This document shows, piece after piece, positions 1-24,313 of a DNA stretch of 64,000 nucleotides. A program made the position numbers and the translations under genes. Each line of letters begins with the position of its first letter. Within the stretch, counting starts at the first letter, position 1. Source of the DNA: Candidatus Omnitrophota bacterium (lineage in GTDB: Bacteria > Omnitrophota > Gorgyraeia > Gygaellales > Profunditerraquicolaceae). The stretch covers positions 7,051 through 71,050 of the forward strand of contig JAQTQC010000005.1 in the NCBI GenBank assembly GCA_028712505.1. The letters run 5' to 3'. Below the pieces are notes generated by a model. The model saw only the letters and a program-made list of their open reading frames with translations. It was not told where the DNA came from and made no database searches.

Positions 1-3000
1 GCGCCAAACTAACTAGTTACTATTCTTTTACCACTAAAAAGGCTACCGGGGAAGTTAGGGATCAGAATGCCCAGGTGGCTAAGAATACTATTGTAGCCGG
101 TTCCTTGACAAATCTGTCCGCGACTTCCAGTATAACCGAGGTAAGCGAGAGGATAGAATCCTCTCCGTATTTAACACTCAACTTTACATTGGCGCATCAG
201 CTTCCCATCGGAGGGTATGTCAAGATTAGCTTTGATACTGATTATGTATTCCCAACCGATACATTCTGCGTTACTAATGACTATAACTTGTATAGCGATG
301 ATTCAACCAAGATAATGTATCTGCAGAGAGTGAGTTCTCCTGTGGCAGTAGGGGCAACCAGTATACAACTGGCGAACATCAAGAATCCCGCTTATGTGCA
401 GACAACCGGCAATTTCTCAATAACAACCGAGCTTTCCAGCCATGATCCTATAGACACAGGTTCTGCCGGAGGCATTGGTATTGTTGCCGGTTCATTAACT
501 AACGCATCTGTGGCTCCGGTTTCTGATATTGTTAGCGAATTTACAAGTTATACGGTTAATTTTACCAATGACCATATGATAGCTGCAGGGTCTAAAGTAG
601 CTATTACTTTTGATGCTGATTACGGATTTAAGTTATTAGGTAGGTATGCTTGTGTAGCTTCTTTGGCAGACAGCTCGCTTACACTTATGGATATATCTAA
701 TCCTGCTAGCCCCGTGCTTAAGTCTGAAATTTCTGATGAAGCAGGAGGATTTAACAAGCTTGCAGGAGCAAAGTCGGTTTATGTTTCAGGAAGCTATCTC
801 TATGCAGCTTCATCAATAGATAACTCTTTAACCATCATCGATATCTCGAATCCAGCTAGCCCGGTGCTTAAATCCGAGATTTACGATGAAACAGCGGGAT
901 TTACCAAGCTGGCTGGAGCTCAATCCGTATTTGTCTTGGGCAATTATGCCTATGTTGCTTCTTCAACAGATAATGCTTTAACCATCATCGATATCTCGAA
1001 TCCAGCCAGCCCGGTGCTTAAGGCTGAGATTACCGACGGTTCGGGAGGCTTTACTAAATTAGCCGGAGCAAAATCCGTATTTGTCTCGGGCAATTATGCC
1101 TATGTTGCTTCTTCAACAGATAATGCTTTAACCATCATCGATATCTCGAATCCAGCCAGCCCGGTGCTTAAGGCTGAGATTACCGACGGTTCGGGAGGCT
1201 TTACTAAATTAGCCGGAGCAAAATCCGTATTTGTCTTGGGCAATTATGCCTATGTTGCTTCTTCAACAGATAATGCTTTAACCATCATCGATATCTCGAA
1301 TCCAGCCAGCCCGGTGCTTAAGGCTGAGGTATATGATGGGGATGGGGAGTTTAATAGGCTGGCGGGGATTGAGTCTGTTTATGTCTCGGGCAATTATGCC
1401 TATATTACTTCTTCGACTGATAATTCCTTGACAATCATGGATATCTCGGATCCTGCTAACCCGGTGCTTAAATCCGAGGTATATGATGGGGATGGGGAGT
1501 TTAATAGGCTGGCGGGAGCTTATTCAGTTTACGTTTCCGGAAATTACGCCTTTGTTGTATCTTCTGCAGACAGTTCTTTGACAATAATAGACGTAACAAA
1601 TCCGATGAATCCTGCGCTTAAGTCTGAGGCGTATAATGAAGACGGGCAGTTCAATAAGCTAGGCGCGCCGTTTGCAGTTTTTGTATACGGAAATCAGGTT
1701 GTTCCCGGTAATGCGGGCGCGACTGTTGCTGCCAGCGGCAGCGTATTGAACGTTACCTTAGGTTCTCCTATAGGTGCTAATGAAGCTGTTTCTTTGCAAT
1801 TAGATAATATAAGAAATCCCTATTATGTCCAAACTCCGGATGTCTTCCAGGTGCAGACTAAGAATTCCGCCGGAGGGGTGGTAGATCAGAATCTTTCTGT
1901 AGCATCTGTTCCTGTTACAAAAGGAGCCTTTACCGGGTTAAGCGTTACTGCCGCGGATAGGGAAATCAGTAAGTCTGACAATTACACCTTTACGCTTACC
2001 TATAGTCATCCGGTTCCGAAAGACGGATATCTAAAGATTGAATTTGATTCAGATTATGATTTAAGTTCTGCGTACTTGGTCAGCCCCACTGATAGGTATA
2101 CTTATCTGTGGAGTTCAGGATGGAACTATATAGAACTTAAATTGAAAGAAGGAATCATCGCTGATACCTCTGATACTATTGTTTTAGGTTCGGTGAAGAA
2201 TCCAAGTTTTGTCCAGCAGACCAGCGAGCATCGGTTTACAACATTGAGTACTGATGCCACGGGCAATGCTGTTATCGACCAATCCAATCTTACCGGTTTG
2301 ATCATTATCGGTGGAAAACTTACCGGTGTCTCTGTCAGTGCTGCTAATAATATTGTTACCGAGACTACAAATTACACAATCAACCTGACGACGAAAAACC
2401 CGATGTCTCTTAATCCTTCAATTAAAGTCTCGTTTGATCCGGATTATAACGTATCGGGAGCTGCTTTTGTTTCCGGAACAGTTGACGGAGTGGCAATGGT
2501 TACGCAGAATCCGGCGCTTACTATTGATACTAATAATAATGTAGTAACGCTTAATCTGGCTATGGATATCACTAATTCTACAGCCGCGGTATCTTTCGTT
2601 CTCTCGGGTATTGTTAATCCCGGCTATGAGCAGACAGCGGCGTTTGATATAACCACTCAGTATGGCGGTAACGATATTGATATTACTGATCCGGCTGCTA
2701 AACCTTCAGTAGCAATAGCCGCAGGCACAATAACTTCTGCCAGCGTCACTCCTGCGACAACAGAGGTAAGCGAATCCGGAAATTATGTTTTTAATTTTAC
2801 GTTGCCGCATGCTTTAGCTACAGGAAGTTTCTTAAGGATACAATTCGATCCGGATTATGTTTTAACCAATACGAATTGTCAGACCAGCGGTTACTCTTTA
2901 TCAAAAGGTTTAGATTACATCCTTTTGCAAAGGACGGGTGCGCAGTTAACCGGCGCTCAAAGCCTTACCTTGGGTAATGTGAAGAATCCCAGCTTTGTCC

Positions 3001-15000: not shown

Positions 15001-18000
15001 GATATCTGTTGATCAGGACTACTCAGGAACGCAGTGGAGCCTGTTCCATACAGCTAAGTGGAATAAGGAACCCTTCTTATGTGCAGACAACCGATAATTT
15101 CACAATCGCTACGCAATTAGCTACGCAGCAAAATATTGATACCGGAACTATCGGAGGTATTACTACTACGACCGGCTCTTTAACCGGACTTACGGTATCT
15201 ACGACTAATTCTAAGATTGCTGAATCAGCTGTCTATACTTTTAATTTTACAGCAGACCATGCTGTTGCAGTAGGGGGTAAGGTAGCTATAACCTTTGATG
15301 CTGATTATGACCTGACAGCGGTTACTTCTACCAGTGTTTCCGGTAATTCCGGTTCGACCGTATCGGTCAGCGGTCATGACCTGATAATTACCTTAGGCGA
15401 GCAGATCTTTGCTGCAGGTAACGTGTCTCTGGCTGTATCCAATATAGTTAATCCGGCATATGTCCAGACTTCGGATGCCTTTGTTATTAAGACCAAGAAT
15501 CCTGAAGACGGTTTAATCGATACTGGCAATGCATCCGGGGTGACGCTTGAACCTGGCGTATTGGGCAATGTAAACGTCAGTTCAAACGATTTGCAGGTTA
15601 ATGCCCAATCAATCTATACCTTTGTTTTTACTCCTGCGCATCCAATTCCTGCCAACGGGTATATTAAAATAGACTTGGATAATGACTATGATATAAGCGG
15701 GGCATATCTTTATCTGGTATCAGGCTATTCTTTTGAGAAAAATACGAGCGATGTGTATTTTACATTACAGGCAAATAGCGCTAAACCCGCAGGTACTCCT
15801 TTAACGATATCGATAGCCGGTATTATTAACCCGCCATACAGTCAGACCACGGATAGTTTTATGATTAATACCCAAGCAGCCAATCAAAGCGGTATTGATT
15901 CTGGCTTAGCCAACGGTGTGGAGATTACTGCCGGCCAGCTTTCAGGTGTTTCTGTGGTTTCTGCCGGAAATAACTATGTAGTTGGAAATCAGGTAAATTA
16001 CACTGTAGCCTTTACTACTGTTAATCCTATAGGAGTAGGAGGCCAGGTTAAAGTTACTTTTGACGCAGATTATGGTTTTGCTTTAAATGGCGCTGTATCG
16101 GGTAATGCGGGAGCTACAGCTGCGGTAAATGCGAACGTGGTTACTGTAACTTTAGGTACTGCGGTTGCGGCTAATCAGGCAGTCAGTTTGACCTTGGGCA
16201 CTTTTACTAACCCAGGATATGTGCAAAAAACAGATGAGTTTTTGATCAAGACATTTGATTCGGCGGGATACGCCCTGGATTCAGGCAAGACATTGGGCAA
16301 GGATATAACTACAGGCGCCCTTACCTCTTTAAGCGTAAATTCAAGTTCAGCCAGCGTGCTTAACGCAGATACAAAATTGACCTTTAGTTTTAATGCCCCG
16401 CATGTGATTCCGCTTGATGGTTTCATTAAAATTAACTTAGATAGTGATTATAGCGTGGTGTCGCCTTATATCAAGAGTTCCAGCGGAGCCAGCCTGACTT
16501 TGCTTACGGAGGCTGGAAGCCAGGCCGGATATCTTTTATTTAAACTAAATTCTGCGGCTTCCGGGGCAATAAGCGTGGAAGTCGGAGGTATTACCAATCC
16601 CTCTTATGAGCAGACTACCCAGAATTTTGTGATTACTACCATGTACACCGGAGAAGAAGGTATCGACACCGGTACTATTCCGGGCCTGGTAGTTAATTCC
16701 GGATCCTTGGTCATCAGTTCTGTGGCCTGTTTGGATAATTACGCCGGCGCCACCACGACATATACTGTTAATTTTGCCGCGGTTCATGCTATCGCGGTCA
16801 CGAGTAAGATCGAAATTGTTTTCGATAGTAATTATAATTTAGCCGGTGCCGAATTGAGCAGCCCATCCGGGAGTTTAACTGTTTCAGGAAGTACTTTGAG
16901 CATATCCTTAGAGGCAGAAGCAGCAGCTTCTTCCAATGTAAGTTTGAATATAGCCGGTATAGTCAATCCGGGTTATTCTCAGACAACTGATAACTTCAAG
17001 GTTACAATTAAGGATGTTGGTGGGAATACCGTAGATAAGGGTGAAGGTTCGGGTATTGCTATATTGCCGGCTAGGATAGAGTTTATCACTCCTGCTGCCG
17101 GAGATATTTATTCTGTCGGAGACAGCAAGATCATTAAATGGCAGGTGACCGGAGGTGATATCTCCCGGACCAGCAGCCATTGGTCAGTGCAGTTTGCCTC
17201 GGATACTAATTTCACTTCGCCGATAACCGTACATGAAGGCCTGGCAAGTGTTGATGCAAATAGTAACCTGTATTTTACGTTATCCGTGGATGTGAGTATG
17301 CTTTCAGAGAATGCTTATCTGCGGGTGACTTGTATCGATAATTCATATACGGATGTTACGACAACTTCCGGAAGATTCAGCATAAGGCCGGTTGCCGGGT
17401 TCATAGGCTATATTTCTCCGGCGTCTTCATCCGCGAAATGGGCTATTGGAAGCAGCAGTACGATAGAATGGTCTACGCAAGGGGCGACGAGCAATAATTT
17501 TAAGATTGAATATTTTGCCAAGAATATCTGGACAACTATTTATGAAGAAGGGGTTACTGGTTCAGCGCTGGTTATCAAGAGTGCCGGAGACCATTGGTAT
17601 GAGGATAAGTGGTCCTATAGTTGGGCCATACCTGAAGCAGCTAACTTGCCCGATACCGGCGTGCAGGTCAGGGTTACTAATATAGATAATAATATAATTA
17701 CCGGCACTACCGAGGCCTTCGAGATAGCTACTGCTTATATAGAAATCACCAGCCCGGCAGAAGGGTCTACTTGGGTAAGGAATGAAACTAATAATATCAC
17801 TTGGGAAGGGCAGGGTGAGTCGGGTACTAATTTCAGCATTCAGTATGTTGATTCAACCAATGCGGTTACCGTAGATATCTATAGCGGGACAATAGAAAGA
17901 ACGCTTTCCGAGGGTAAATGGCTGTACAGTTATTCCTGGTTGGTAGGCATAGACCTTGAACCTACGGACACGGCAGTAATAACGATAACTAACCTGGATA

Positions 18001-21000
18001 ACAACAAAATCGTTGATACTTCTTCTGTATTTAGCGTTAATGCCAGCGGTAAGCTGGAGATAACCGCTCCAGTAGAAGGCGGCAGATGGGTTGCCGGAGC
18101 CAGATATACGATAAAATGGAATTCCGAGGGACAGGCGCTCAGTTCATCTTCTTTAAGGATAACCTATACTGCGGATGGTATCAGCGAAACCTTGATCACC
18201 AACTCTACTTCCAATACCGGAAGCAAGGATTTTACCTGCCCATCGACTACGTTAAATAATGTAAAGATTCGTCTTCGTCAGATAAACGGGGATGTTACTG
18301 CTGAGTCCGGAGCTTTCAATATCGTGGCTGTTCCTTCTCTCCAGTTTGTCTCTCCGGCTGCCAACGACAACTGGGTTGCCTCATTCACCAAGGAGATAAA
18401 ATGGAGCGGAGTTGGGGAAGGGCTTACCAAGGACCTGGTGATCAAATACTCAACCGACGGCGGCTCAACCTACGCTAATACAATTTTTAACTATACCACC
18501 GATTCTTTTGATGAAAAGATTTCAGCCGTAACTACAGGTACAGTTACCAATTATACATTATCATGGGTTGTGCCAGTTAATTACAGCAGCAATGTGAAGA
18601 TAAAGATCGAAGATATGGGGATAATGCGTCTAGTTAGCGGAAGTTATACTCCTTTAAGTCTGGTCAGCGGTAAATTCTCCATAACTGCCCCTCTGGCGAC
18701 TATTGTCCAGCCAGCAGGAGGAGAAGAGTGGATATCCGGTACCGAGCATGATATCATCTGGTCGGAAACAGGTTCTTTGGGTAAAGATATCAAGATAAGT
18801 TATTCTGTTGACGGTGGCGCAACCTACCCTTATGTTATTTTCCAGAATTCTTCCGGCGATTCCACGGTGTATGCTAATTATATAACTGTTGCGGATAATT
18901 TATTCAGCTATAAATGGGTGGTTCCGAATACTATTTCCGCCCAATGCCGTATCAAGGTAGAGGGTCTGTCAAATAGCGGAAACGGAACTTCCCTGGCTAA
19001 TTTCTCGATCAAGCTGCCATCTATTACGATAACGTCTCCTGTAGCTACAGATTTGTGGGCAATCTATGATAGCTCTCGGATAATCACTTGGAATACCGTT
19101 GGTAATGTCAGCGAGCATTTAAAGATAGAATATTTCAAAGATGAATCTACTTCCAAGGTCATATTGGAGGATACTAATGGTCCGATGACTTCTTATAGCT
19201 GGGATGTAACCGAGGATTTCATAGATTATGTTTCGCCAAGCGGCTGGATAAAGATTACGGATTTAAATTCTGAGTCTACCTTTGCTCAGAAGGTTACTGC
19301 TGTATCGGAGCAGTTTGAATTGTCTCTGCCAGGATTTGATATCGATGTCCCGGCGGTTCCCTTGATCACGGGAAGTTCTTATACTATAACCTGGCAGGGT
19401 GTTGGTGCTTATTCTGCTTGCAGCAGCGAATCGGGTAATACTGTACGTTTAGAGTATGGCGTCGGGGATAATCCTACCTGGGTTACTATTGCCACATCTA
19501 CGCAGAATGATGGTTCATATGAAAACTGGACGGTACCCGACAGGCATTCCAGCGATGTCAAATTCAGGATCACGAATAACAGGTATTCCTTTATTTCTAC
19601 TGTCTCCAGCGCCTTCAAGATCATGGGGTCATTCTCGGTTACCAGCCCAGCTGCCGCAACCAAGCTTTTTGTGGGCAAGGAACAGATGATCGAATGGAGC
19701 ACTAACGGTACGATTAATAAAGTAAATCTTTATTATTCGAAGAATGGCGGCTCAACCTGGACTACCCTGGCTTCTAACACTACTAATAACGGATTCTATG
19801 TCTGGATAATACCCGACGCGGTACTCATCGACCGTTCGCCTAATCCGAACATCTATTTCAAGATAGAAGACGCTACCGATGCAGCAGTTTATGCCAGCAG
19901 GCAGCTTACGATAAGTTATTATAAGGTTACTTGGAATGTTATCGATGCCGATGGCTTGGTAGGTGATTTGGACGGCTTAAGCGTAAATACCCTTGATGTT
20001 AGCAATGATAACGCGGTATGGGAAGATAGGACAGGTTTGAGCTGTTCTGCTTCCATCCGGAACGCTGGTATTGATGCCGATGATATAGTGCTCTATTATT
20101 ACCCCGGCCATCTTTATCAGACTACCTGGTCAAGAGACGCTTATCTGGATGCTACTGTCCAGCCTTCGCCGTGGACAGCAGATGCCGACGGTAAAGAATT
20201 TACCGTAACCTTGGCTACTATGCTGGTGACGAAAACAAGGACTGTGTATTCTTCTGTGACATATGATGCTTCGGCAGATACCTTAAGTATACAGTGTTGG
20301 CTGCAGGAAGAGGAAAAGTTATTGACTGAGATAGCCGGGTTGCAGGGGGCACTGGTAATTATTTATGATGATGAGGATAACGAGATTAAGACTTTTGAAT
20401 ACACGGCTGCGCAAGCAGATGCCAGCGGTGTCTTCTGGACAAAATGGGTTAATCCCGGCTTGCAAAGAAATAAGTCTTATTTTGCCCGTTTTAGGATCCA
20501 GTTCGAAGGAGCATTCCATTACGGCGGTAAGACATTTGAGATAAGTTCAGCTTCACAGATCGACGATATTGCCGAATCGGTAAGTGCCGGAGTCGTTGCT
20601 ATCACATCGGCAATTGCCGAAAGCTCTCAGGAGATAAAAGAAAAAATAGAAGAGACAGCAACCGAGACGCAAACTAAGGTGGCTCAGGCTGTCAGTACAG
20701 CTCAGGCATCGATAGAGGGCACGGTTACGGTTATCGGTGAGGAAAATAAGGCTGCGATCGGTAGCGCTTCAGCGGCGATAAGAGAAAAAGTCGGGAAAGA
20801 ATCCTCCAGCCGTATATTAAACGGAGAGGCTTTTATTAAATCAGGGAATAAATTAAAGATTCGCTATCAGACTGATTCCAAGTTAGCTCCGGAAATAGAT
20901 GTATATGATCCTAAAAATATTCAGCGTATAACTAAAGGCGTAATGACAGAGGTTGGAGATACGGGTGTTTATGAATATGAGGTCAATTTCTTGAGTGGCT

Positions 21001-22169
21001 GGGGAGAAGGTTCATATTCAATTGTTTGTTCTGAGCCGACCTTGGGGACTATTGATGGCATAACCATAGAAATCGTAAACGCGGATTTGGAAGATATCAA
21101 TAGTGCTGCAGTTGTCTCGATGTCCCAGTTGTCCAATATCGATACCGATGATATGAAGAGTTTGTCTACGAGTATAGGCGTGGTCAGCTCAAGCATCGAG
21201 AAGATCGTCGGTACAATGACTGACCTGGGTTCGATGAGTACTCAGATTTCCGCATTGACCAATGACATCCAGAAGACTGTTTTTGACCAGCTTTCTGTTG
21301 CTTCCGAAAAGATGAGAGAGATAGCTAAGCAGCAAAACGTCAAGATAGACAAGATGATCGATGTGTCTGAGAAGGGTCGGGAAGATGTGGATTATCTTAA
21401 GAAGAAGACTTTGGAGATCAAGGCTACAGCCGAGCTTACCAATGACATAATCACCAGGACAAATGATAAGCCGATAACTAAATCGTGGCTTGAGCCGGGA
21501 AGTATTTTAATGAACGCAGTTGTGGTTAATCCTTCCACCACCAAGAGTCAGACTGCCATGCTTAAAGCTTATCTGCCTGTGGAGAGCAAGCCTGAGGACA
21601 TAGTGGATTTAGGCGATCTTTCTGTAAGTTATGATGTCCAGGAAAATCTTTATTACGTATATAAAGAATTTACCCTTGGCCCTGGTGAAATGGCTAAGCG
21701 TCAGATAGAACTTAAAGATGTGTGGGTAATCCCTGAAAGCGAACTAAACGCGAATATAGAAAGAATAAATGAGATGCTTCAGGATCTTAAGGGGAGCACT
21801 TTCTATAATAGGGCTATGGTTATAAAAGATACTATTCAAACAAGGGTAGCTCAGATCCTGGATGCGCAGAAAAAAGCTATCGATGCCTTGCCTGATGTTC
21901 ATATCGCAGCTTACAGGGCGAATATGAAGATATTAAATACCATCAAAGAAGACTTGGCTAAAGTTGAGGCTATGCTTCTTCAGGCTAAGCCAGCTGTTGG
22001 TTTGGCGTTCAATAAGGTCTTTGTTAAAACCAGCTGGTGGATAATTTTGCTGGTAGTCATTTTCTTGGGTGTACTTTCGTTCGGACTTTTTATCATCTGG
22101 CATAAACAGGCCAAGGCGGCTTTGCTTGAGAAGAAGGCGGATAAGACTGATGAGCCGATAGGTCAATAG
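1..22169 (+). CDS. giant repetitive, tail-anchored cell-surface protein (5'-partial; >7,388 codons inside window)
   Basis: One open frame runs from window position 3 to TAG at 22167-22169. There is no in-frame stop upstream of the GTG at 75, and the upstream in-frame peptide (..SYYSFTTKKATGEVRDQNAQ) looks like the end of another module, so the gene continues 5' of the window. The translation is periodic: LVIVD-type repeats; about 42 modules containing NYTFNFT..H.[IV]P.GG[KY]V.I.FD.DY and ending in [KRI]NP.YVQTT; nine I[TS]SP..G..W..G....I.W..G repeats; an Ala/Glu/Lys/Ile-rich coiled coil; and a C-terminal hydrophobic helix WWIILLVVIFLGVLSFGLFIIW followed by a basic tail. A 22-kb frame with no stop cannot arise by chance. 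Confidence 0.85.
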   Translation, partial: AKLTSYYSFTTKKATGEVRDQNAQVAKNTIVAGSLTNLSATSSITEVSERIESSPYLTLNFTLAHQLPIGGYVKISFDTDYVFPTDTFCVTNDYNLYSDDSTKIMYLQRVSSPVAVGATSIQLANIKNPAYVQTTGNFSITTELSSHDPIDTGSAGGIGIVAGSLTNASVAPVSDIVSEFTSYTVNFTNDHMIAAGSKVAITFDADYGFKLLGRYACVASLADSSLTLMDISNPASPVLKSEISDEAGGFNKLAGAKSVYVSGSYLYAASSIDNSLTIIDISNPASPVLKSEIYDETAGFTKLAGAQSVFVLGNYAYVASSTDNALTIIDISNPASPVLKAEITDGSGGFTKLAGAKSVFVSGNYAYVASSTDNALTIIDISNPASPVLKAEITDGSGGFTKLAGAKSVFVLGNYAYVASSTDNALTIIDISNPASPVLKAEVYDGDGEFNRLAGIESVYVSGNYAYITSSTDNSLTIMDISDPANPVLKSEVYDGDGEFNRLAGAYSVYVSGNYAFVVSSADSSLTIIDVTNPMNPALKSEAYNEDGQFNKLGAPFAVFVYGNQVVPGNAGATVAASGSVLNVTLGSPIGANEAVSLQLDNIRNPYYVQTPDVFQVQTKNSAGGVVDQNLSVASVPVTKGAFTGLSVTAADREISKSDNYTFTLTYSHPVPKDGYLKIEFDSDYDLSSAYLVSPTDRYTYLWSSGWNYIELKLKEGIIADTSDTIVLGSVKNPSFVQQTSEHRFTTLSTDATGNAVIDQSNLTGLIIIGGKLTGVSVSAANNIVTETTNYTINLTTKNPMSLNPSIKVSFDPDYNVSGAAFVSGTVDGVAMVTQNPALTIDTNNNVVTLNLAMDITNSTAAVSFVLSGIVNPGYEQTAAFDITTQYGGNDIDITDPAAKPSVAIAAGTITSASVTPATTEVSESGNYVFNFTLPHALATGSFLRIQFDPDYVLTNTNCQTSGYSLSKGLDYILLQRTGAQLTGAQSLTLGNVKNPSFVQTTSNFIIKTEDSGNNKIDGAEVSGVTTTTGALTGLSLTPLDYTVANTTAYNIAFTTDHAIVQNGKIEVTFDSDYALTGVGSADVSGNPGSTVAVSGNKLTITLGTAIAAATPVSLQVANIVNPVYVKTTNSFAFRTMDAAAGLLDQGTASGVTTVAGTFTASSVTSTYYTTGKTDVSYTFNFTYAHNVPLDGFLRIDFDPDYDVASVAVAHANYTKQEAGANYVILKLLAAKPKGTVESITLSNIKNPGYAQTVTFDIKSMNTTGSVIDTVTTPSINIVPAALTALSRSSNTYIATESASYTIGFTTVNAIPAGGKVEITFDPDYVLTSVASGNVSGNSGSTVAVSGNTLIVTLGTNIPALTASSLVISNIKNPGAQSTGSFSLLTKNVSGYSIDQGTVSGVTIITGSLSGLSTVPVHTKVSYSTNYTFGFTVAHSVPVGGFIKIQFDSEYDLSSAFVVGDYTISKVDNYIYLQRNVSALSGAVTVELRSIKNPAYVQSTDTFVITTELSNHDPIDVGSAPSIVTTAGTLTATSVAPATTVVAENTAYTLNFTTEHAIAVGGKVEITFDPDCDLSLVFPGDVSGNSDSTVAVSGNKLIVTLGEALDAGVSETLVISNIKNPPYVKETNTFFVQTKNPSGGVIDEVTAASITTSTGVLGSPVITPASLVSGATTSYSFKFTPAHAVPLNGYLRIDFDSSYDLASPGAVVMSSTTACDITLRGAGYLLIKFSSSGLSAGVEQTVGIANVVNPPNVKSLEFTLTTKDASLYDIDTVKISGISTTAGSLSSSSLTANTYVVSEYATYTAVFTTANPIAVGGKVEINFDTDYVLSSVESTGVSGNPGSTVAVSGSKLVVAIGTAIAKNTPVSLAIANIKNPVYVQATDSFLIQTKTVDDAIIDTATATSINITAGALSGLSVSATSKKISDITSYTFNFTAQHVIPADGFIRIQFDSNYLLGSAYLDTASFYSLDRGSDYLRFKTVAQINAGQAVSIPISTIANPSYVYTVSNFQVKTMIAVAATQQIMDSGEITGVTLTPGTLSDISVTAASAEVSALTNYTFAFKTENSIAAGTGKVAISLDSDYDLSAVESNNVSGNSGATVSVSGNTLSITLGTAIAAKESVSLTVSNIKNPSYVQTTGSVTISSKVQINSVDYDKDGGILASGPAITSGDFTNVSISATSQIAGEDSIYTFGFTPGHNVSAGGFIYIGFETGYDVSGAYLTGSTGSGEYAVASLTSTQVVLNVTAAIAKGEAQTISLGGVVNPQFVKDVICTLKSANASSGIIDESDTPSLSITPAPLAVLSISGASYVAQDVTSYTIAFTTVNPIDQNGEVEVEFDADYDLSAVQPGNVTGNSGSSVSVSGSKLIINLGTAVASGEQVSLVVSNIKNPGVQTTGSFNLVTRNSSGNYLDYGGVAGTAITAGSLSGLSATPGTTEIDESTSYTFNLTLGHSVPTNGYVRVQFDNNYVLTNATVVTSGYSLTKGTNYVLLKRTGSALSGAISIQLNSIINPSYVSNTLAGFAIQTQLSNNQVIDTGTAGAITTTAGALSAVTAVPASLGVSTLTSYTFNFTTDHAIPSGGKVLITFDSDYNLTSVQEGNVSGVADSVVAVSGNVLTVTLGQAIAAKTSASLVISNIRNPSYVQTTNNFALESRNSSNALIDQGTAGGVTTVTGIVTISSITASTYVAGSTNAQYTFNFAPTNAVAAGGYLRVDFDVTDSAYNASSAIVSAGGSTFVIPQGGANKNYVNLTFTQNVDAGSPLSLQLSGIVNPVYAKNVTFRLTTNISTGEKIDTSDYGPVVITPAPLVGTSLIMGSTTALDISRHTFSFTTVNAIDVGGKVEITFDSDYVLTGVGSGNVSGNSGSTVAVSGSKLIVTLGTAVSSASEVVLAIDNIKNPGAQTTDAYAIVTKNSGGYQLDQGSVAGKTITAGVLTVLSADATTYEVAESANYTINFTLAHNIPINGYVRVQFDDNYTLTNATVATSGYALTGTGSNYLLLRTGSERSGAISIQLNSIINPSYVSNTLAGFAIQTQLSNNQVIDTGTAGAITTTAGALSAVTAVPASLGVSTLTSYTFNFTTDHAIPSGGKVLITFDSDYNLTSVQEGNVSGVADSVVAVSGNVLTVTLGQAIAAKTSASLVISNIRNPSYVQTTNNFALESRNSSNALIDQGTAGGVTTTAGTLTSVSGAAVNYAAGAETQYTFNFMPANDVVTGGYVKIEFNSEYNITGAYLISPSAKYSISTKTNNIIVLNVLADALASSSQSISIGGIVNPGREKTGIKFTVTTLTSNSANIDTAQSAAINITAGVLTSSSATASTYTTYDLASYTFNFTTANALDVGGKVEITFDADYDVSAAVFTYGNDNSTLSVSGRVVTITLGTAIAKQESVTLTISEIRNPGVQSTDSYAIVTKDSSATRVDTGTISGKVITGGGMSATSVTAGSTQPAVTTNYTFAFTPDHIIPTGGYIRVTFDSDYVLDYVSVQTAGYAASTGPGYVLLTNTSGGNLSGARSIVLLNVKNPASVKEPTGNFYITTMTSNQDTIDTATLTGITMTPSPITVSSISTVSAEVSALTSYTVKITPIHTIPIGGKVLITFDSDYNLSNIGSGDVLGNSSTASVSGNILSVTLGEMASQGNVLTLVISDVQNPSYVQTTGVFSVVTKDASGYKLDSGDIAGISITEGQLTNLSATPANTTLDTITSYLFQFTPEHTIPLNGYVKITFDSDFDLTGAYSGTGSYSIVSLESGYILLKALAEKSTAQSLQILNVKNPSYVQTTDAFSITTQDANQKNIDVGNASGITTTAGVLSAGSVSQTSTQAGTTTSYTFNFTTIHAVAAGGKVEITFDSDYILTSVTAYNVSGIANSTVAVSGNKLIVTTGTAVSAGAQVALTISNIKNPAYVQTTSAFAIDTKNVSGGLLDSGTIPGINITAGSLSSVSATPVSTEAAKSTDYTFNFTTEHSLPADGYVQIEFDPAYDLSTSVVLTSGYALVTRGSNYLKLQTSEIRSGSISIVLRNIVNPPYVATSSAFTVITQTSTGDTVDMGTCSGITTTPAALTSASASAALTEVSSQGDYTFIVTPQHDIPIGGRIRITFDNDYTLTNVVSGNVACSGGNATVSVSSKTLIITLGYELVGGTEESIVISNIKNPSFAQTTNNFTIVTRDDQDRTIDQGAASGVVITAGALTAISVTADSLVAGYTSVYTFNFTPAHAVNSGGYVVIDFDSAYNAASGYVVSPLSTFSLSSRSANRITLSALETLPAATAQSVTIGSIVNPGSVKQVTFTISTQNSTQNNIDTAVSPAISTQAAPMTAVSVNAVSKIALDSTSYTFVFTTVNSIEAGGKIEFTFDSEYDLTQATYASGLIGGSTALGATLAVSGSKLILTTTTAISTQAGVSVVFANIKNPGVQTVDNFAILTRNLNNNELDQGTATGVAITAGSLTGLSVTAGSTEIGATSTYSFGFTVAHTVPVNGYVKISFDSDYSFANANVLSEAYVITDKQSNFILLRRSAQLIGANTLQLGNIVNPSYVQATDPFVITTQLSDNKIIDTGTTLSVNITPGSLTQLSASAVNPLISAVSSYSFSFKTTHAVEAGGKVVITFDDDYDLSLVSIGSQDISGSGTPAIESKEGKKLNIVLSTGVSASATVSLSISNITNPRYVQTTSSFVFQTRTVSGAAIDEGLSGGITTTAGTLTGINIASGSAIAGARTDYTFTFTPAHSVEANGYLRIDLNSQYNAGISYVMSPTALFEISDKAANYITVKALSALTAGTSYSVRLGNIDNPGRSMDVTFTLTTKTASSANIDTGISSSMHITPAPMQSASISSSSLIATETATYTLNFVPVNTIDDGGRVEITFDSDYVLTGVNSVTGFDASIAVSGSVLIITLNTQLEAGEACSFIIPNIKNPGAQTTDAFSLVTKDSTGTSLDEGTIASKVIQAGALGSLSVSADSYEVMGTSESATYTFNFTCVHAIPANGYIRIGFDTDYSLDNVVNLSSGYLISSKGAGYLLIRTTQERSGACSIQLSGIRNPSYVQTTDNFTIATQLATQQNIDTGTIGGITTTTGSLTGLTVSTTNSKIAESAVYTFNFTADHAVAVGGKVAITFDADYDLTAVTSTSVSGNSGSTVSVSGHDLIITLGEQIFAAGNVSLAVSNIVNPAYVQTSDAFVIKTKNPEDGLIDTGNASGVTLEPGVLGNVNVSSNDLQVNAQSIYTFVFTPAHPIPANGYIKIDLDNDYDISGAYLYLVSGYSFEKNTSDVYFTLQANSAKPAGTPLTISIAGIINPPYSQTTDSFMINTQAANQSGIDSGLANGVEITAGQLSGVSVVSAGNNYVVGNQVNYTVAFTTVNPIGVGGQVKVTFDADYGFALNGAVSGNAGATAAVNANVVTVTLGTAVAANQAVSLTLGTFTNPGYVQKTDEFLIKTFDSAGYALDSGKTLGKDITTGALTSLSVNSSSASVLNADTKLTFSFNAPHVIPLDGFIKINLDSDYSVVSPYIKSSSGASLTLLTEAGSQAGYLLFKLNSAASGAISVEVGGITNPSYEQTTQNFVITTMYTGEEGIDTGTIPGLVVNSGSLVISSVACLDNYAGATTTYTVNFAAVHAIAVTSKIEIVFDSNYNLAGAELSSPSGSLTVSGSTLSISLEAEAAASSNVSLNIAGIVNPGYSQTTDNFKVTIKDVGGNTVDKGEGSGIAILPARIEFITPAAGDIYSVGDSKIIKWQVTGGDISRTSSHWSVQFASDTNFTSPITVHEGLASVDANSNLYFTLSVDVSMLSENAYLRVTCIDNSYTDVTTTSGRFSIRPVAGFIGYISPASSSAKWAIGSSSTIEWSTQGATSNNFKIEYFAKNIWTTIYEEGVTGSALVIKSAGDHWYEDKWSYSWAIPEAANLPDTGVQVRVTNIDNNIITGTTEAFEIATAYIEITSPAEGSTWVRNETNNITWEGQGESGTNFSIQYVDSTNAVTVDIYSGTIERTLSEGKWLYSYSWLVGIDLEPTDTAVITITNLDNNKIVDTSSVFSVNASGKLEITAPVEGGRWVAGARYTIKWNSEGQALSSSSLRITYTADGISETLITNSTSNTGSKDFTCPSTTLNNVKIRLRQINGDVTAESGAFNIVAVPSLQFVSPAANDNWVASFTKEIKWSGVGEGLTKDLVIKYSTDGGSTYANTIFNYTTDSFDEKISAVTTGTVTNYTLSWVVPVNYSSNVKIKIEDMGIMRLVSGSYTPLSLVSGKFSITAPLATIVQPAGGEEWISGTEHDIIWSETGSLGKDIKISYSVDGGATYPYVIFQNSSGDSTVYANYITVADNLFSYKWVVPNTISAQCRIKVEGLSNSGNGTSLANFSIKLPSITITSPVATDLWAIYDSSRIITWNTVGNVSEHLKIEYFKDESTSKVILEDTNGPMTSYSWDVTEDFIDYVSPSGWIKITDLNSESTFAQKVTAVSEQFELSLPGFDIDVPAVPLITGSSYTITWQGVGAYSACSSESGNTVRLEYGVGDNPTWVTIATSTQNDGSYENWTVPDRHSSDVKFRITNNRYSFISTVSSAFKIMGSFSVTSPAAATKLFVGKEQMIEWSTNGTINKVNLYYSKNGGSTWTTLASNTTNNGFYVWIIPDAVLIDRSPNPNIYFKIEDATDAAVYASRQLTISYYKVTWNVIDADGLVGDLDGLSVNTLDVSNDNAVWEDRTGLSCSASIRNAGIDADDIVLYYYPGHLYQTTWSRDAYLDATVQPSPWTADADGKEFTVTLATMLVTKTRTVYSSVTYDASADTLSIQCWLQEEEKLLTEIAGLQGALVIIYDDEDNEIKTFEYTAAQADASGVFWTKWVNPGLQRNKSYFARFRIQFEGAFHYGGKTFEISSASQIDDIAESVSAGVVAITSAIAESSQEIKEKIEETATETQTKVAQAVSTAQASIEGTVTVIGEENKAAIGSASAAIREKVGKESSSRILNGEAFIKSGNKLKIRYQTDSKLAPEIDVYDPKNIQRITKGVMTEVGDTGVYEYEVNFLSGWGEGSYSIVCSEPTLGTIDGITIEIVNADLEDINSAAVVSMSQLSNIDTDDMKSLSTSIGVVSSSIEKIVGTMTDLGSMSTQISALTNDIQKTVFDQLSVASEKMREIAKQQNVKIDKMIDVSEKGREDVDYLKKKTLEIKATAELTNDIITRTNDKPITKSWLEPGSILMNAVVVNPSTTKSQTAMLKAYLPVESKPEDIVDLGDLSVSYDVQENLYYVYKEFTLGPGEMAKRQIELKDVWVIPESELNANIERINEMLQDLKGSTFYNRAMVIKDTIQTRVAQILDAQKKAIDALPDVHIAAYRANMKILNTIKEDLAKVEAMLLQAKPAVGLAFNKVFVKTSWWIILLVVIFLGVLSFGLFIIWHKQAKAALLEKKADKTDEPIGQ
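640..1700 (+). repeat. array of ~7 LVIVD-type beta-propeller repeats (~50 aa / 150 bp each) inside the giant gene
   Basis: Repeated peptide G(N/S)YAYVASSTDNALTIIDISNPASPVLKAEI.DG.GGF.KLAGAKSV.V matches the LVIVD repeat consensus found in archaeal and bacterial surface proteins. Confidence 0.7.
991..1290 (+). repeat. two tandem 150-bp units, 149/150 identical (single c/t difference at 1087 vs 1237), flanked by further partial copies (935-990, 1291-1328)
   Basis: Direct comparison of 991-1140 with 1141-1290 in the sequence. Confidence 0.9.
7491..8008 (+). repeat. copy A of an exact 518-bp intragenic direct repeat (one full module)
   Basis: 100% identical to 9012-9529 (offset 1521 bp), checked line by line. 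Identity breaks at 8009 (t) vs 9530 (a). Confidence 0.9.
9012..9529 (+). repeat. copy B of the exact 518-bp intragenic direct repeat
   Basis: Identical to 7491-8008. Encodes the same 172 aa (SGAISIQLNSIINPSYVSNTLAGFAIQTQ...DQGTAGGVTT). Confidence 0.9.
17070..19830 (+). repeat. nine ~95-110-aa Trp-containing repeats (I[TS]SP..G..W..G....I.W...G), KNH/Kre9 (GPI-anchored-family)-like
   Basis: Peptides IEFITPAAGDIYSVGDSKIIKWQVTG, YIEITSPAEGSTWVRNETNNITWEGQG, KLEITAPVEGGRWVAGARYTIKWNSEG, SLQFVSPAANDNWVASFTKEIKWSGVG, SITITSPVATDLWAIYDSSRIITWNTVG and others. Confidence 0.6.
22032..22100 (+). other. C-terminal transmembrane anchor of the giant protein (tail anchor), followed by a Lys-rich 24-aa tail
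   Basis: Hydrophobic stretch of about 22 residues WWIILLVVIFLGVLSFGLFIIW, then HKQAKAALLEKKADKTDEPIGQ. Confidence 0.6.
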
Positions 22170-22349: not shown

Positions 22350-23126
22350 ATGATGAAATCCTGGGTTAGCTGGGTGTTATTGAGTTTATTCTTATTGTAT
22401 CCTTTAGAGGCTCCTGGCGCAGATGTTTCCTGGAATAATGTAGAAAAAAGCAAACATTTCCTTATTTATTTTCAGGATGCTCCTGCTGAATATATCAACC
22501 GCCTGGTGCGGGAGGCAGAACGCTCTTACAAGAATATTACCGAGTACCTGGGTTTTGTGAGGTTTGATTTCTGGATCTGGGATAACCGCTGTAAGATTTT
22601 CCTCTATCCCGACGCCGATACCTATCTGAAAACTACCGGAGTTATCGGCTGGTCAAGAGGGCATGTCCAGGTAGTAACAAAAGAGATCAGTACTTATATC
22701 TGGCAGGAAATGTTTTTTGATACGATTCTTCCTCATGAGATCGGGCATATCATCTTCAGGGAATTTGTCGGCTACAGCAAGGTGTTACCTCTCTGGCTTG
22801 ATGAGGGGGTGGCTTGCATGCAGGAGTATGAGAGCAATGAGCGTTTGGCCACCGCTAAATGCCTGGTGAACTTGAAATTATACACGCATTTGGATGATTT
22901 ATCCAAGATTCAGGATTCCGGGGTTATTATACCTTTTATTTTTTATAATGAATCTGCCAGCCTGGTGGATTTTCTCCTGAGGAGATATGGCAGGGGTAAA
23001 TTTGTTGATTTCTGTCGTTCTCTGCGTGATGAGCCTGATTGGAAACAGTCTCTCAGAGGTGTCTATAGATTAAAGAATCTGGATGAACTGGAAAGAAACT
23101 GGGTTATGGACTTAACTGAAAATTAA
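22350..23126 (+). CDS. secreted zinc metallopeptidase, peptidase-MA-like (HEIGH ... WLDEG)
   Basis: N-terminal signal-like segment MMKSWVSWVLLSLFLLYPLEAPGA. HExxH motif HEIGHIIF followed by WLDEGVA, as in Peptidase_MA_2 family proteins. Confidence 0.55.
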   Translation: MMKSWVSWVLLSLFLLYPLEAPGADVSWNNVEKSKHFLIYFQDAPAEYINRLVREAERSYKNITEYLGFVRFDFWIWDNRCKIFLYPDADTYLKTTGVIGWSRGHVQVVTKEISTYIWQEMFFDTILPHEIGHIIFREFVGYSKVLPLWLDEGVACMQEYESNERLATAKCLVNLKLYTHLDDLSKIQDSGVIIPFIFYNESASLVDFLLRRYGRGKFVDFCRSLRDEPDWKQSLRGVYRLKNLDELERNWVMDLTEN

Positions 23127-24268: not shown

Positions 24269-24313
24269 ATAAATTCTTAAATTTGTATTCAGTGTTCCCT
24301 CGCTTATACGCTC

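What the first reader, a model, noticed from the sequence alone, without database searches (positions are those of the whole stretch)
1..22169. Giant (>22 kb) single ORF encoding a modular, tail-anchored surface protein
One frame stays open for 22,167 nt. It encodes LVIVD propeller repeats, then about 42 tandem beta-rich modules of roughly 140 aa, nine Trp-marked KNH/Kre9-like repeats, a coiled coil and a single C-terminal TM helix. This combination is not a standard adhesin architecture (not RTX, BIG, cadherin or YadA). Genes of this size are rare and are characteristic of a few uncultivated, host-associated or predatory lineages. Together with the adjacent secreted metallopeptidase and the secretion and pilus machinery, it is the best candidate in the window for an undescribed host- or prey-contact system.
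Basis: partly seen in the sequence, partly recalled or inferred. Interest (0 to 1): 0.9.

Follow-up and report, generated by a model that had tools for sequence, protein, structure and literature searches.

The report
Giant Omnitrophota membrane-anchored surface fibre gene
This is the last 22 kb of a gene of more than 32 kb from an uncultivated Omnitrophota bacterium; it encodes a very long, membrane-anchored surface fibre built from about 47 copies of an uncatalogued Ig-like module, which is a known kind of giant protein in this phylum and is most likely used to reach and stick to other cells.

Summary
Frame +3 is open from nt 3 to a TAG stop at 22167-22169 (7,388 codons) and runs off the 5' end. 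Two orthologues stay open for at least 3,372 more codons upstream, so the true gene is at least 10,760 aa.

- **Organism:** Omnitrophota. There are ten orthologous loci in MAGs, colinear, with dN/dS about 0.05-0.13 and identical synteny.
- **Architecture:** 42 back-to-back modules of about 126 aa, with a 7-blade LVIVD propeller nested inside module 2. Then come nine Kre9/KNH-like repeats, a beta/helical base and a single C-terminal TM helix.
- **Modules:** no Pfam, NCBIfam or PDB sequence match. AF2 (pLDDT 96) gives an Ig-like/cohesin-like sandwich, and a profile finds 2,150 cluster representatives in a 1.84-billion-protein library.
- **Upstream in orthologues:** Kelch-like sequence, DUF2341, LamG and PA14 domains.
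- **New point:** the "tail anchor" is a gene fusion. In relatives the fibre stops at ...KPITxxWLEPGS, and a separate signal-peptide-plus-TM protein follows.
- **Conserved neighbours:** MA-clan peptidase, an F-type ATPase cluster and T2SS-like genes, also in distant relatives.

Giant genes beside T2SS/T4P and "symbiotic" ATPase loci are already published for this phylum, so this is a well-resolved new member of a known kind. The adhesion function is inferred, not shown.

The parts
3..22169 (+). 3' 22.2 kb of the giant gene (7,388 codons plus a TAG stop). The 5' end lies outside the window.
   Evidence: Orthologues L012 and L013 stay open for at least 3,372 codons further upstream.
3..497 (+). 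Tail of one stalk module (aa 1-30) and stalk module 1 (aa 31-165).
   Evidence: module profile hit, 119.7 bits
483..656 (+). N-terminal half of stalk module 2 (aa 161-218), ending just after the FDADY motif.
   Evidence: The profile alignment covers only positions 2-51. Orthologues L012 and L013 break at positions 52-53 and resume at 57.
657..1706 (+). Seven-blade LVIVD beta-propeller (7 x 50 aa, aa 219-568) nested in a loop of module 2.
   Evidence: PF08309 E=1.1e-76, 7 stretches; blades listed. The insertion point falls in the loop between strands 38-42 and 64-68 of the AF2 module model.
1674..1916 (+). C-terminal half of stalk module 2 (aa 558-638).
   Evidence: profile positions 57-122
1917..17078 (+). 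Stalk modules 3-42: 40 back-to-back Ig-like modules, mean period about 126 aa. Two types alternate within a 4-module super-repeat.
7474..8017 (+). First copy of a 544-nt near-identical internal duplication (97.8% identity to 8995-9538, offset 1,521 nt).
   Evidence: Both copies are present in L012 and L013 and match this segment almost equally well there.
8995..9538 (+). Second copy of the 544-nt near-identical duplication.
17076..19907 (+). Nine Trp-marked repeats of about 100 aa (aa 5692-6635), Kre9/KNH-like Ig domains.
   Evidence: alignment A1. Kre9_KNH is sub-threshold in 5 of 9 repeats.
19923..21500 (+). Base of the fibre (aa 6641-7166): beta domains interspersed with long helices. It ends in the conserved motif TNDKPITKSWLEPGS.
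   Evidence: AF2 secondary structure, with two beta domains at pLDDT 70-88 and the rest low. 26% identical to the C-terminal regions of P0010, P0014, P0019 and P0127. Motif comparison.
21465..21509 (+). Fusion junction: ...KPITKSWLEPGS | ILMNAVVVNPS...
   Evidence: Relatives P0005 and P0006 stop exactly here. In L094 the next ORF, 60 nt downstream, encodes a signal peptide followed by SIILNAVVVNPS....
21501..22166 (+). Anchor moiety (aa 7167-7388): beta domain, helices, TM helix and a basic tail. It is homologous to a separate 454-463-aa signal-peptide-plus-TM protein in relatives.
   Evidence: BLASTP against L091:29988-31379, 29% identity, E=5e-26, TM included. Neighbour tables.
22035..22100 (+). 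The single transmembrane helix (about aa 7345-7366), followed by the tail HKQAKAALLEKKADKTDEPIGQ.
   Evidence: Kyte-Doolittle 3.21. It is the only segment above 1.9 in 7,388 aa.
22350..23126 (+). Conserved neighbour: putative secreted MA-clan zinc peptidase (signal-peptide-like N-terminus, HEIGH at aa 129).
   Evidence: Peptidase_MA_2 at 28.7 bits, below the 32.4 cut-off. Sequence. Present in all orthologous loci and in L091.
23145..24059 (+). Conserved neighbour: REC-GGDEF diguanylate cyclase response regulator.
   Evidence: synteny
24056..29000 (+). Conserved neighbour: F-type ATPase genes c (24056-24268), b/delta fusion (24445-25203), alpha (25203-26669), gamma (26686-27576) and beta (27591-29000). 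No subunit a or epsilon is seen in the window.
   Evidence: The same cluster follows the giant gene in L091-L093.
29021..36762 (+). Conserved neighbour: T2SS-like cluster with GspE, F, G, I, J, K, a PilM/PilN (GspL-like) gene and a PilO/GspM-like gene. No secretin is present in the window.
   Evidence: gspE and gspF synteny. A secretin lies upstream in L092.

Best explanation
The ORF is the 3' two-thirds or less of a gene of at least 32 kb in an uncultivated Omnitrophota bacterium. The gene encodes a single-pass, N-out/C-in surface fibre.

From the distal end to the membrane the fibre consists of:
1. A head of lectin-type and propeller domains. In orthologues upstream of the window these are Kelch-like sequence, five DUF2341 domains, two LamG domains, and a PA14 domain nested in a stalk module. 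Inside the window it is a 7-blade LVIVD propeller nested in stalk module 2.
2. A stalk of about 47 uncatalogued Ig-like/cohesin-like beta-sandwich modules, 42 of them in the window.
3. Nine Kre9/KNH-like Ig domains.
4. A beta/helical base.
5. A membrane anchor that is a separate gene in relatives and is fused in frame here. The stop codon, the spacer and the anchor's signal peptide have been lost.

Shown: the anatomy, the fold of the module, the orthology, purifying selection, the fusion and the conserved gene neighbourhood.

Inferred:
- The protein is exported by Sec through an N-terminal signal peptide, as seen in the complete relatives P0010 and P0014.
- It is held in the cytoplasmic membrane by the C-terminal helix.
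- It projects a rod of roughly 200 nm or more. This assumes 4-5 nm per Ig-like domain, which is my own estimate. The rod would then be comparable with the roughly 0.2-um cell.
- Its glycan-binding head contacts host or prey cell surfaces.
- It works together with the co-inherited peptidase, c-di-GMP regulator, F-type ATPase and T2SS/T4P-like apparatus.
For: - Open frame and domain map.
- Organism: the closest homologues and 10 genome loci are Omnitrophota MAGs.
- Real, selected gene: eight orthologues are colinear over 2,544-4,087 aa with 1-14 gaps. dN/dS is about 0.04-0.13 wherever it could be computed. Independent assemblies L012 (6 gaps over 4,149 aa) and L013 have the same module count.
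- Longer gene with a lectin-type head.
- The module occurs in other surface proteins. These carry SLH, Calx-beta, He_PIG or LamG domains, signal peptides and C-terminal anchors.
- Extracytoplasmic topology: complete relatives have N-terminal signal peptides. The separate anchor protein has its own signal peptide plus a C-terminal TM.
- Fusion.
- Conserved neighbourhood in close and distant relatives.
- Literature: giant ORFs with adhesion domains, T2SS/T4P proximity, and increased giant-protein peptides in attached V. archaeovorus cells.
Against: - The true N-terminus and its signal peptide were not seen. The frame is still open at the start of every locus fetched.
- No binding, localisation or expression data exist for this protein. 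Adhesion is inferred from domain types only, and LVIVD and DUF2341 have no established ligand.
- How an inner-membrane-anchored fibre would pass the outer membrane is unexplained, and no secretin is in the window.
- The module also occurs in S-layer-type proteins (SLH-bearing P0047; proteins with PGF-CTERM-like tails), so a coat role is equally compatible with the fold.
- The helical base model is of low confidence (pLDDT 48.6).
- Neighbourhood conservation among these relatives could partly reflect general synteny rather than functional coupling.
Confidence: 0.6

Rival explanations
1. It is a structural surface coat (an S-layer-like or 'velamen' component). On this reading the protein is not an adhesin reaching outward. 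It lies on or around the cell and forms a protective or spacing layer, and the repeats serve as lattice or spacer elements.
For: - The module family occurs in an SLH-domain protein (P0047) and in proteins with archaeal-looking signal peptides and PGF-CTERM-like tails.
- The protein is very rich in Ser/Thr (24%) and poor in Cys, as in glycosylated envelope proteins.
Against: - The layout is linear head-stalk-anchor, with lectin-type domains concentrated at the membrane-distal end.
- There is a single anchor point.
- Module number is strictly conserved within the orthologue group but is 11-16 in relatives. That fits a length-tuned fibre better than a lattice.
- No lattice-forming domain was recognised.
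Confidence: 0.18
2. It is a scaffoldin. The roughly 47 cohesin-like modules would be docking sites for dockerin-bearing enzymes or other proteins. This would form a cell-bound multi-enzyme complex for degrading prey envelopes.
For: - Module size and tandem arrangement resemble scaffoldins.
- Dockerin-rich giant proteins exist in Omnitrophota.
Against: - There is no cohesin (PF00963) profile hit, and sequence identity to cohesins is 5-14%.
- No dockerin domain was found in any gene of the window or in the orthologues' upstream 3,333 aa.
Confidence: 0.07
3. It is the 'leg' of an ATPase-driven attachment or motility machine. The fibre and its anchor would be mechanically coupled to the adjacent F-type ATPase and pilus-like apparatus. 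The analogy is Mycoplasma mobile, where giant membrane-anchored legs are driven by an F1-like ATPase.
For: - The order giant gene, anchor, F-type ATPase (c, b/delta, alpha, gamma, beta, with or without epsilon, never subunit a), gspE, gspF is conserved from 87%-identical orthologues down to relatives only 26% identical in the fibre base.
Against: - Alpha and beta score far better against canonical F1 subunits (440-480 bits) than against the M. mobile G1-ATPase beta (305 bits).
- No phylogeny was made, so the 'symbiotic' class is not established for this copy.
- Subunits a and epsilon could simply be encoded elsewhere.
- Adjacency does not show physical coupling.
- The cytoplasmic tail of the fibre is only 22 aa.
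Confidence: 0.08
4. It is an assembly artefact or a decaying pseudogene. On this reading the long frame results from repeat collapse or chimerism, or is no longer expressed.
For: - A 544-nt segment is duplicated at 97.8% identity.
- One orthologue (L003) carries a frameshift inside the array.
- Most public copies are contig-end fragments.
Against: - Modules are otherwise only about 60-77% identical at DNA level to the repeat-family reference copies and 30-44% on average at protein level, which is too diverged to collapse.
- Eight orthologues plus L012 and L013, from independent assemblies, are colinear with 1-53 gaps.
- dN/dS is about 0.1 along the whole length.
- There are 7,388 codons without a stop at 43% GC.
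Confidence: 0.02

Closest known systems
Giant proteins of Omnitrophota: the 'Archaeovorin' and 'Dockerin-type' proteins of West-Roberts et al. 2023, the 'tandem-repeat scaffold' class of Nielsen & Lui 2026, and the giant ORFs of Seymour et al. 2023
   Same: - Same phylum.
- Gene longer than 20-30 kb.
- Predicted extracellular bulk with a membrane anchor.
- Adhesion-type domains such as Laminin_G_3.
- One dominant repeated unit whose copies have diverged at nucleotide level.
- T2SS/T4P-like genes and c-di-GMP genes (GGDEF next door, PilZ further downstream) in the neighbourhood.
   Different: - Only one TM helix in at least 10,760 aa, against many TM helices.
- No SecA-DEAD, glycosyltransferase, hydrolase, dockerin or TSP3 domains in the part seen.
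- The dominant repeat has no Pfam model.
- The T2SS-like cluster lies downstream, not upstream.
- The anchor is a fused, formerly separate protein. I did not find that described in the sections I read.
Fibrillar adhesins of bacteria: a long stalk of tandem Ig-like domains, a distal adhesive domain and a cell anchor, as in LapA/MpIBP-type RTX adhesins, SiiE and Gram-positive MSCRAMMs and pilins (from my own knowledge of Monzon & Bateman's definition)
   Same: - Head-stalk-anchor logic.
- The stalk fold is an Ig-like sandwich whose structural neighbours include MSCRAMMs, pilins and PrgB.
- Lectin-type domains (PA14, LamG) lie at the distal end.
   Different: - No RTX/T1SS signal, no LPXTG motif, no autotransporter or other outer-membrane anchor.
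- Anchoring is by a C-terminal helix in the cytoplasmic membrane.
- Ligand-binding domains (LVIVD propeller, PA14) are nested inside stalk modules.
- The stalk module is a different sequence family.
Cellulosomal scaffoldins (tandem cohesin modules)
   Same: Tandem sandwiches of about 130-140 aa. Cohesins are among the best structural matches.
   Different: No cohesin profile match, no dockerin partners seen, and better structural scores to YcnI/BslA-type Ig folds.
Mycoplasma mobile gliding machinery (giant surface legs plus an F1-like ATPase)
   Same: A giant membrane-anchored surface protein is encoded beside F-type ATPase genes that lack subunit a. The literature already draws this analogy for Omnitrophota ATPase/T4aP loci.
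   Different: - No sequence relationship between the fibre and the Gli proteins was tested or seen.
- Alpha and beta here are closer to canonical F1 than to the M. mobile enzyme.
- A T2SS-like pseudopilus cluster is present here.

Membership tests
LVIVD repeat beta-propeller (PF08309) | Repeated LVIVD-type blades scoring above the Pfam gathering threshold. | tested here: met
   252.4 bits against a cut-off of 20.2, E=1.1e-76, 7 stretches. There are seven 50-aa blades.
Kre9/KNH-like Ig domain (PF10342) | A score above the gathering threshold (24.6 bits). | tested here: inconclusive
   - The window region scores 20.0 bits.
- Five of the nine repeats hit individually at E<=1, with a best E of 5.4e-4.
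- The family does pass threshold in the orthologues' upstream region, at 58-64 bits.
Omnitrophota 'Archaeovorin'-type giant protein (West-Roberts et al. 2023) | Numerous transmembrane regions along the protein. | tested here: not met
   There is one hydrophobic helix in 7,388 aa, and none in the 3,400 aa upstream in L012-L014. The extreme N-terminus was not seen.
Omnitrophota 'Archaeovorin'-type giant protein (West-Roberts et al. 2023) | A SecA-DEAD domain and enzyme domains (glycosyltransferase, glycosyl hydrolase, methyltransferase, NUDIX). | tested here: not met
   No such Pfam hits were found in five window segments covering aa 1-1,800 and 5,001-7,388, nor in the 3,333 aa upstream in two orthologues. 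The segment aa 1,801-5,000 was not scanned; it is tiled by stalk modules.
Omnitrophota 'Dockerin-type' giant protein | Many dockerin and TSP3 repeats. | tested here: not met
   No PF00404 or PF18884 hits.
Omnitrophota giant-gene loci in general (West-Roberts 2023; Nielsen & Lui 2026; Seymour 2023) | An Omnitrophota genome, an ORF longer than 20-30 kb, and T2SS/T4P-like and c-di-GMP genes nearby. | tested here: met
   - Taxon labels of the homologues.
- A length of at least 32.3 kb, by orthology.
- GGDEF at 23145, a T2SS-like cluster at 29021-36762 and PilZ at 61375.
Fibrillar adhesin (functional class) | A stalk of tandem repeated beta-sandwich domains. | tested here: met
   42 modules and nine Ig-like repeats. 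The fold was predicted at pLDDT 96.
Fibrillar adhesin (functional class) | A recognised adhesive or ligand-binding domain. | tested here: inconclusive
   PA14 and Laminin_G_3 are present only in the orthologues' upstream region. Within the window there is only the LVIVD propeller, whose ligand is unknown. Binding was not tested.
Fibrillar adhesin (functional class) | A known surface anchor (LPXTG, an outer-membrane barrel, or T1SS retention). | tested here: not met
   None was detected. The anchor is a C-terminal TM helix derived from a fused partner protein.
Cohesin / scaffoldin | A cohesin sequence profile and cognate dockerin partners. | tested here: not met
Tail-anchored protein in the strict sense | No signal peptide, a cytosolic N-terminal bulk, and post-translational insertion of the C-terminal TM. 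| tested here: inconclusive
   - The N-terminus was not seen.
- The complete relatives P0010 and P0014 carry signal peptides.
- The unfused anchor protein has its own signal peptide.
- The basic tail follows the TM.
All of this points to a type-I, N-out topology, so strict membership is unlikely.
'Symbiotic' (type 2/3-like) F-type ATPase / T4aP locus of Omnitrophota (Seymour et al. 2023), for the neighbouring genes | ATPase genes co-located within 10 kb of pilus genes, and an alpha subunit that clusters with non-respiratory ATPases. | tested here: inconclusive
   Co-location is met, since beta ends 21 nt before gspE. No subunit a is in the window. No phylogeny was done. By score, alpha and beta are nearer to canonical F1 than to the M. 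mobile G1-ATPase.

The most novel reading that the evidence does not exclude
The fibre, its anchor, the subunit-a-less F-type ATPase and the T2SS/T4P-like apparatus would form one dedicated, co-inherited machine. A cytoplasmic F1-like motor, a pseudopilus or both would deploy or move a lectin-tipped fibre of 200 nm or more on the surface of host or prey cells. This would be a diderm counterpart of the Mycoplasma mobile leg-and-motor system. The in-frame fusion of fibre and anchor in this lineage would then be a Rosetta-stone record of a physical fibre-anchor complex that exists as two proteins in other Omnitrophota.
Probability: 0.1. Interest if true: 0.8.

Novelty: new member of a known kind. 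Interest (0 to 1): 0.45.

Why it matters
Omnitrophota are abundant, uncultivated, ultra-small bacteria. Their giant genes are repeatedly invoked as tools for attaching to or preying on other cells, but Seymour et al. call them poorly conserved and hard to interpret.

This locus is a counter-example that can be worked on. The fibre has a clean, fully parsed head-stalk-base-anchor anatomy. Its orthologues are conserved one-to-one in at least 12 assemblies. Its stalk module folds at very high confidence.

Three results reach beyond this gene:
1. The stalk module is a large family, with 2,150 cluster representatives. Members appear in bacteria, in archaeal-looking proteins and in eukaryotes such as Plasmopara. 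It has no Pfam, NCBIfam or PDB entry, so it is a candidate for a new family definition.
2. The fusion identifies a previously unannotated anchor protein of about 460 aa as the likely membrane partner of the unfused giant fibres. That gives a testable protein-protein interaction.
3. The giant gene, the ATPase cluster and the T2SS-like cluster, which the literature treats as separate "symbiosis signatures", are one conserved gene neighbourhood here.

Tried and rejected
1. **Finding the N-terminus.** The genome and metagenome scans give only 10 kb of flank, and the frame is still open at the start of every locus. The third protein search returned only fragments. P0166 and P0167 lie on broken or unavailable contigs, and the 'M' start of P0167 has no signal peptide and is probably internal.
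3. **The afdb50 fold library** was unavailable.
4. **Sequence searches of PDB** with the module profile and with the anchor found nothing. NCBIfam found nothing for the modules, the Trp-marked repeats, the base or the peptidase.
5. **Is the propeller-inside-a-module unit a common composite?** No. Of 76 LVIVD loci, only the two orthologues have it. In the relatives P0010 and P0127 the RCC1 propeller-sized gaps lie between intact module hits, not inside a split module.
6. **Did the head also arise by fusion with the separate DUF2341 protein that precedes the giant gene in L091 and L093?** There is only weak domain-level similarity, so this is not supported.
7. **Assembly collapse, chimera or pseudogene.** Rejected.
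8. **Strict tail-anchored topology.** Rejected as unlikely.
9. **Promoter and terminator scan** between the giant gene and the peptidase. It found one hairpin (22238-22250) and one promoter-like site (22318-22346), but the counts do not exceed those of shuffled sequence.
Full report
**Observation**

Frame +3 of the window is open from nt 3 to a TAG at 22167-22169, which is 7,388 codons. The next longest open stretch in any frame is 1,259 codons. At 43% GC this cannot be chance. The frame runs off the 5' end, so the window holds only the 3' part of the gene.

**Anatomy of the encoded protein**

I numbered residues so that aa i corresponds to nt 3i..3i+2. A profile built iteratively from one module finds 43 hits:
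- one intact module at aa 31-165;
- one module split in two, with profile positions 2-51 before aa 219 and positions 57-122 at aa 558-638;
- forty modules back to back from aa 639 to 5692, with a mean period of about 126 aa.

Residues 1-30 are the tail of a further module.

The split module holds seven 50-aa LVIVD blades (PF08309, E=1.1e-76, 7 stretches). The propeller is therefore nested in a loop of stalk module 2 and does not sit in front of the array.

Two module types alternate, and one of the two types alternates again. This gives a 4-module, 1,521-nt super-repeat, with mean identity of 30% at odd offsets, 38% at offset 2 and 44% at offset 4.

At DNA level, copies in the repeat families are about 60-77% identical to their reference copies. 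The exception is one 544-nt stretch (7474-8017 against 8995-9538) at 97.8%.

After the array come:
- nine Trp-marked repeats of about 100 aa (aa 5692-6635);
- two beta domains;
- a region of long predicted helices with two more beta domains;
- the only strongly hydrophobic segment of the protein (aa 7347-7365);
- a 22-aa Lys-rich tail.

**Database status of the parts**

- The modules have no match above threshold in Pfam or NCBIfam. A module profile finds nothing in PDB sequences.
- The Trp-marked repeats resemble Kre9_KNH only below threshold (20.0 against 24.6 bits; 5 of 9 repeats).
- AlphaFold2 of two consecutive modules, using 18 in-phase internal copies as the alignment, gives pLDDT 96.4 and pTM 0.84. 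The model is two all-beta sandwiches.
- Foldseek ranks a cohesin dyad first, then integrin legs and MSCRAMMs.

The module is therefore an ordinary Ig-like/cohesin-like fold carried by an uncatalogued sequence family.

That family is large. The two-module profile finds 2,150 representatives at E<=1e-3, 757 at E<=1e-10 and 184 at E<=1e-30 among 1.84 billion cluster representatives. Named members come from Omnitrophota, a Deltaproteobacteria MAG, Plasmopara halstedii and two protist transcriptomes. Others have archaeal-looking signal peptides and PGF-CTERM-like tails. Companion domains are SLH, Calx-beta, He_PIG, Big_9, LamG and RCC1 propellers, which are all extracellular contexts.

**Organism, orthologues and reality of the gene**

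The C-terminal 748 aa match only six database proteins, and those with names are from Candidatus Omnitrophica MAGs. A genome scan found ten loci, mostly labelled Omnitrophota.

Eight of them are colinear with the window protein over 2,544-4,087 aa at 71-81% identity with only 1-14 gaps. dN/dS against five of them is about 0.04-0.13 in the stalk, the Trp-marked repeats, the beta domains, the helical base and the anchor alike, wherever dS could be estimated. dS is saturated, so these values are rough.

Two metagenome loci are orthologues of the 5' part. L013 is 87% identical. L012 is 72% identical with 6 gaps over 4,149 aa. Both have the propeller nested in the module, with the profile broken at positions 52-53 and resuming at 57.

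Both copies of the 544-nt duplicate are also present in L012 and L013, and there they match the window segment almost equally well. This points to concerted evolution, not to assembly collapse.

One orthologue (L003) has a frameshift inside the array. I take the artefact and pseudogene explanations as refuted for the window's gene.

**The gene is larger than the window shows**

In L012 and L013 the same frame stays open for a further 3,372 and 3,378 codons, up to the edge of the fetched DNA. The full protein is therefore at least 10,760 aa.

That upstream part holds five more stalk modules. One of them has a PA14 domain nested in it in the same manner as the propeller. Before the modules lie Kelch-like sequence, five DUF2341 domains, two Laminin_G_3 domains and Kre9_KNH domains above threshold. 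No hydrophobic helix occurs there. The start codon was not reached.

**The anchor is a fusion**

More distant relatives share the fibre base at about 26% identity (P0010, P0014, P0019, P0127). They end without a TM helix, in a conserved motif ...NKP[IV]VEGWFE. P0010 (6,618 aa) and P0014 are complete and start with signal peptides.

In their loci the next gene encodes a 454-463-aa protein with its own signal peptide and a C-terminal TM helix. That protein is 29% identical (E=5e-26) to the last 220 aa or so of the window protein, TM helix included.

Closer relatives at 51-52% identity (P0005, P0006) stop at ...QPITKSWLSPSR and ...QPITQTWLEPGS. This is exactly where the window protein reads KPITKSWLEPGS. 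In L094 the next ORF starts 60 nt downstream and encodes MNRYRKIFIVFILTGLLLTTFLAQA-SIILNAVVVNPS... The window protein continues ILMNAVVVNPS... directly.

So in this lineage the stop codon, the spacer and the anchor's signal peptide were lost, and fibre and anchor became one polypeptide. Two inferences follow. The fibre and the anchor form a complex where they are separate proteins. And the bulk of the window protein lies outside the cytoplasmic membrane, with the short basic tail inside.

**Neighbourhood**

All genes of the window are on the + strand. Directly downstream lie:
- an MA-clan peptidase candidate with a signal-peptide-like N-terminus, HEIGH, and a Pfam score below threshold;
- a REC-GGDEF regulator;
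- F-type ATPase genes c, b/delta, alpha, gamma and beta, with no subunit a or epsilon;
- a T2SS-like cluster (GspE, F, G, I, J, K, L-like, M-like) without a secretin.

This order is identical in nine orthologous loci. Three distant loci show the order giant, anchor, atpC, b/delta, c, A, G, D, gspE, gspF. A Peptidase_MA_2 gene follows in L091, and a secretin lies upstream in L092.

**Comparison with the literature**

- West-Roberts et al. (10.1101/2023.11.21.568195) describe Omnitrophota giant genes with many TM helices, SecA-like and enzyme or dockerin domains. These lie next to T2SS-like loci and pilZ genes.
- Seymour et al. (PMC10066038) report giant ORFs longer than 20 kb with adhesion domains such as Laminin_G_3. 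Separately, they report non-respiratory 'symbiotic' F-type ATPases next to T4a pilus genes in every class of the phylum. They give a cell size of about 0.2 um.

The window's gene belongs to this known phenomenon. It differs from the named types in having a single TM helix, no enzyme, SecA or dockerin domains in the part seen, and a Pfam-dark stalk module.

I could not establish whether the adjacent ATPase is of the 'symbiotic' class. It meets the co-location criterion. However, its alpha and beta subunits score higher against canonical F1 than against the Mycoplasma mobile G1-ATPase, and no tree was made.

**Most likely function**

The layout is a lectin/propeller head, a length-conserved stalk of about 47 sandwiches and nine Ig domains, a helical base and a membrane anchor. 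This is the layout of a fibrillar adhesin.

With 4-5 nm per domain (my own estimate) the rod would be about 200 nm or more, comparable with the cell itself. The stalk has 11-16 modules in relatives but a fixed number within the orthologue group. That suggests reach is the trait under selection.

I therefore favour a long-reach host- or prey-contact fibre (confidence about 0.6). The alternatives are a surface-coat role (0.18), an ATPase-coupled 'leg' (0.08), a cohesin-like scaffoldin (0.07) and an artefact (0.02).

Still unexplained: how such a fibre passes the outer membrane, what the LVIVD propeller binds, and whether the neighbouring machinery handles the fibre.

**Verdict**

This is a new, unusually well-resolved member of the known Omnitrophota giant surface proteins. 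It has three findings worth following up: the uncatalogued module family, the domains nested in stalk modules, and the fibre-anchor fusion.

Noticed in passing
window 24056-29000, next to 29021-36762: The F-type ATPase genes c, b/delta fusion, alpha, gamma and beta end 21 nt before gspE. No subunit a or epsilon is found anywhere in the 64-kb window. The same cluster, with epsilon, follows the giant gene in the distant relatives L091-L093. [quoted passage not shown] 2023 by position. By score, alpha and beta look closer to canonical F1 than to the M. mobile G1-ATPase.
   Followed up: partly
window 7474-8017 and 8995-9538: A 544-nt internal duplicate at 97.8% identity, inside an array whose DNA repeat families are otherwise about 60-77% identical to their reference copies. 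In the orthologues L012 and L013 both corresponding segments match the window segment almost equally well. This suggests ongoing gene conversion between two specific modules one super-repeat apart.
   Followed up: partly
L012 aa 2502-2902 and L014 aa 2971-3366 of the open frame (upstream of the window's start): A second nested domain. A PA14 carbohydrate-binding domain sits inside a stalk module, with profile positions 1-108 before it and 65-133 after it in L012 (1-85 and 64-133 in L014). This parallels the LVIVD propeller nested in module 2.
   Followed up: partly
proteins P0117/P0180 (Plasmopara halstedii XP_024575440.1), P0044 (Hanusia phi), P0033 (Fabomonas tropica); P0029, P0065, P0068, P0139, P0115: The stalk module family also occurs in eukaryotic proteins. 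It also occurs in proteins with archaeal-style signal peptides and PGF-CTERM-like C-termini. It appears to be a cell-surface domain found in all three domains of life, yet it has no Pfam or NCBIfam model.
   Followed up: partly
L003 nt 130-2433 against 2387-12247: The orthologue on CAZQGT010000006.1 has a frameshift inside a stalk module, so the array continues in another frame. This is either an assembly error or a disrupted copy.
   Followed up: no
records of L003, L006, L011 and protein P0009: Orthologous fragments of this gene are labelled 'Planctomycetales', 'Planctomycetia' or 'Dehalococcoidales' in public records. The other members of the same 90% cluster and the syntenic loci are Omnitrophota. 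These are probably binning or classification errors.
   Followed up: no
window 57160-63397: A second signalling and pilus module lies here: a 1,256-aa multi-PAS histidine kinase, a response regulator, a PilZ protein and a second GspE/PilB-type ATPase. The PilZ gene echoes the 'pilZ downstream of giant genes' pattern of West-Roberts et al., but here it lies 39 kb away.
   Followed up: no
window 1-64000: Every gene recognised in the 64-kb window is on the + strand. GC skew is positive in all but one 2-kb bin (cumulative skew rises from 0.04 to 3.97). It is close to zero inside the module array and 0.1-0.23 in most bins downstream.
   Followed up: no
L091 5802-9942 and L093 2121-6599: In distant relatives the giant gene is preceded by a separate secreted DUF2341 protein (846-926 aa) and an FGE-sulfatase-family protein, and further upstream by a histidine kinase with an OmpR-type regulator. 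In the window's lineage the DUF2341 domains are inside the giant protein. A test for a head-side fusion gave only weak domain-level similarity.
   Followed up: partly
window 42736-45140 and 55098-56698: NikR, a CbiM-type transporter component, and CbiQ and CbiO-like genes (nickel/cobalt uptake) are split into two places. They flank glycine-cleavage, lipoate and thyX genes. This is ordinary housekeeping content.
   Followed up: no
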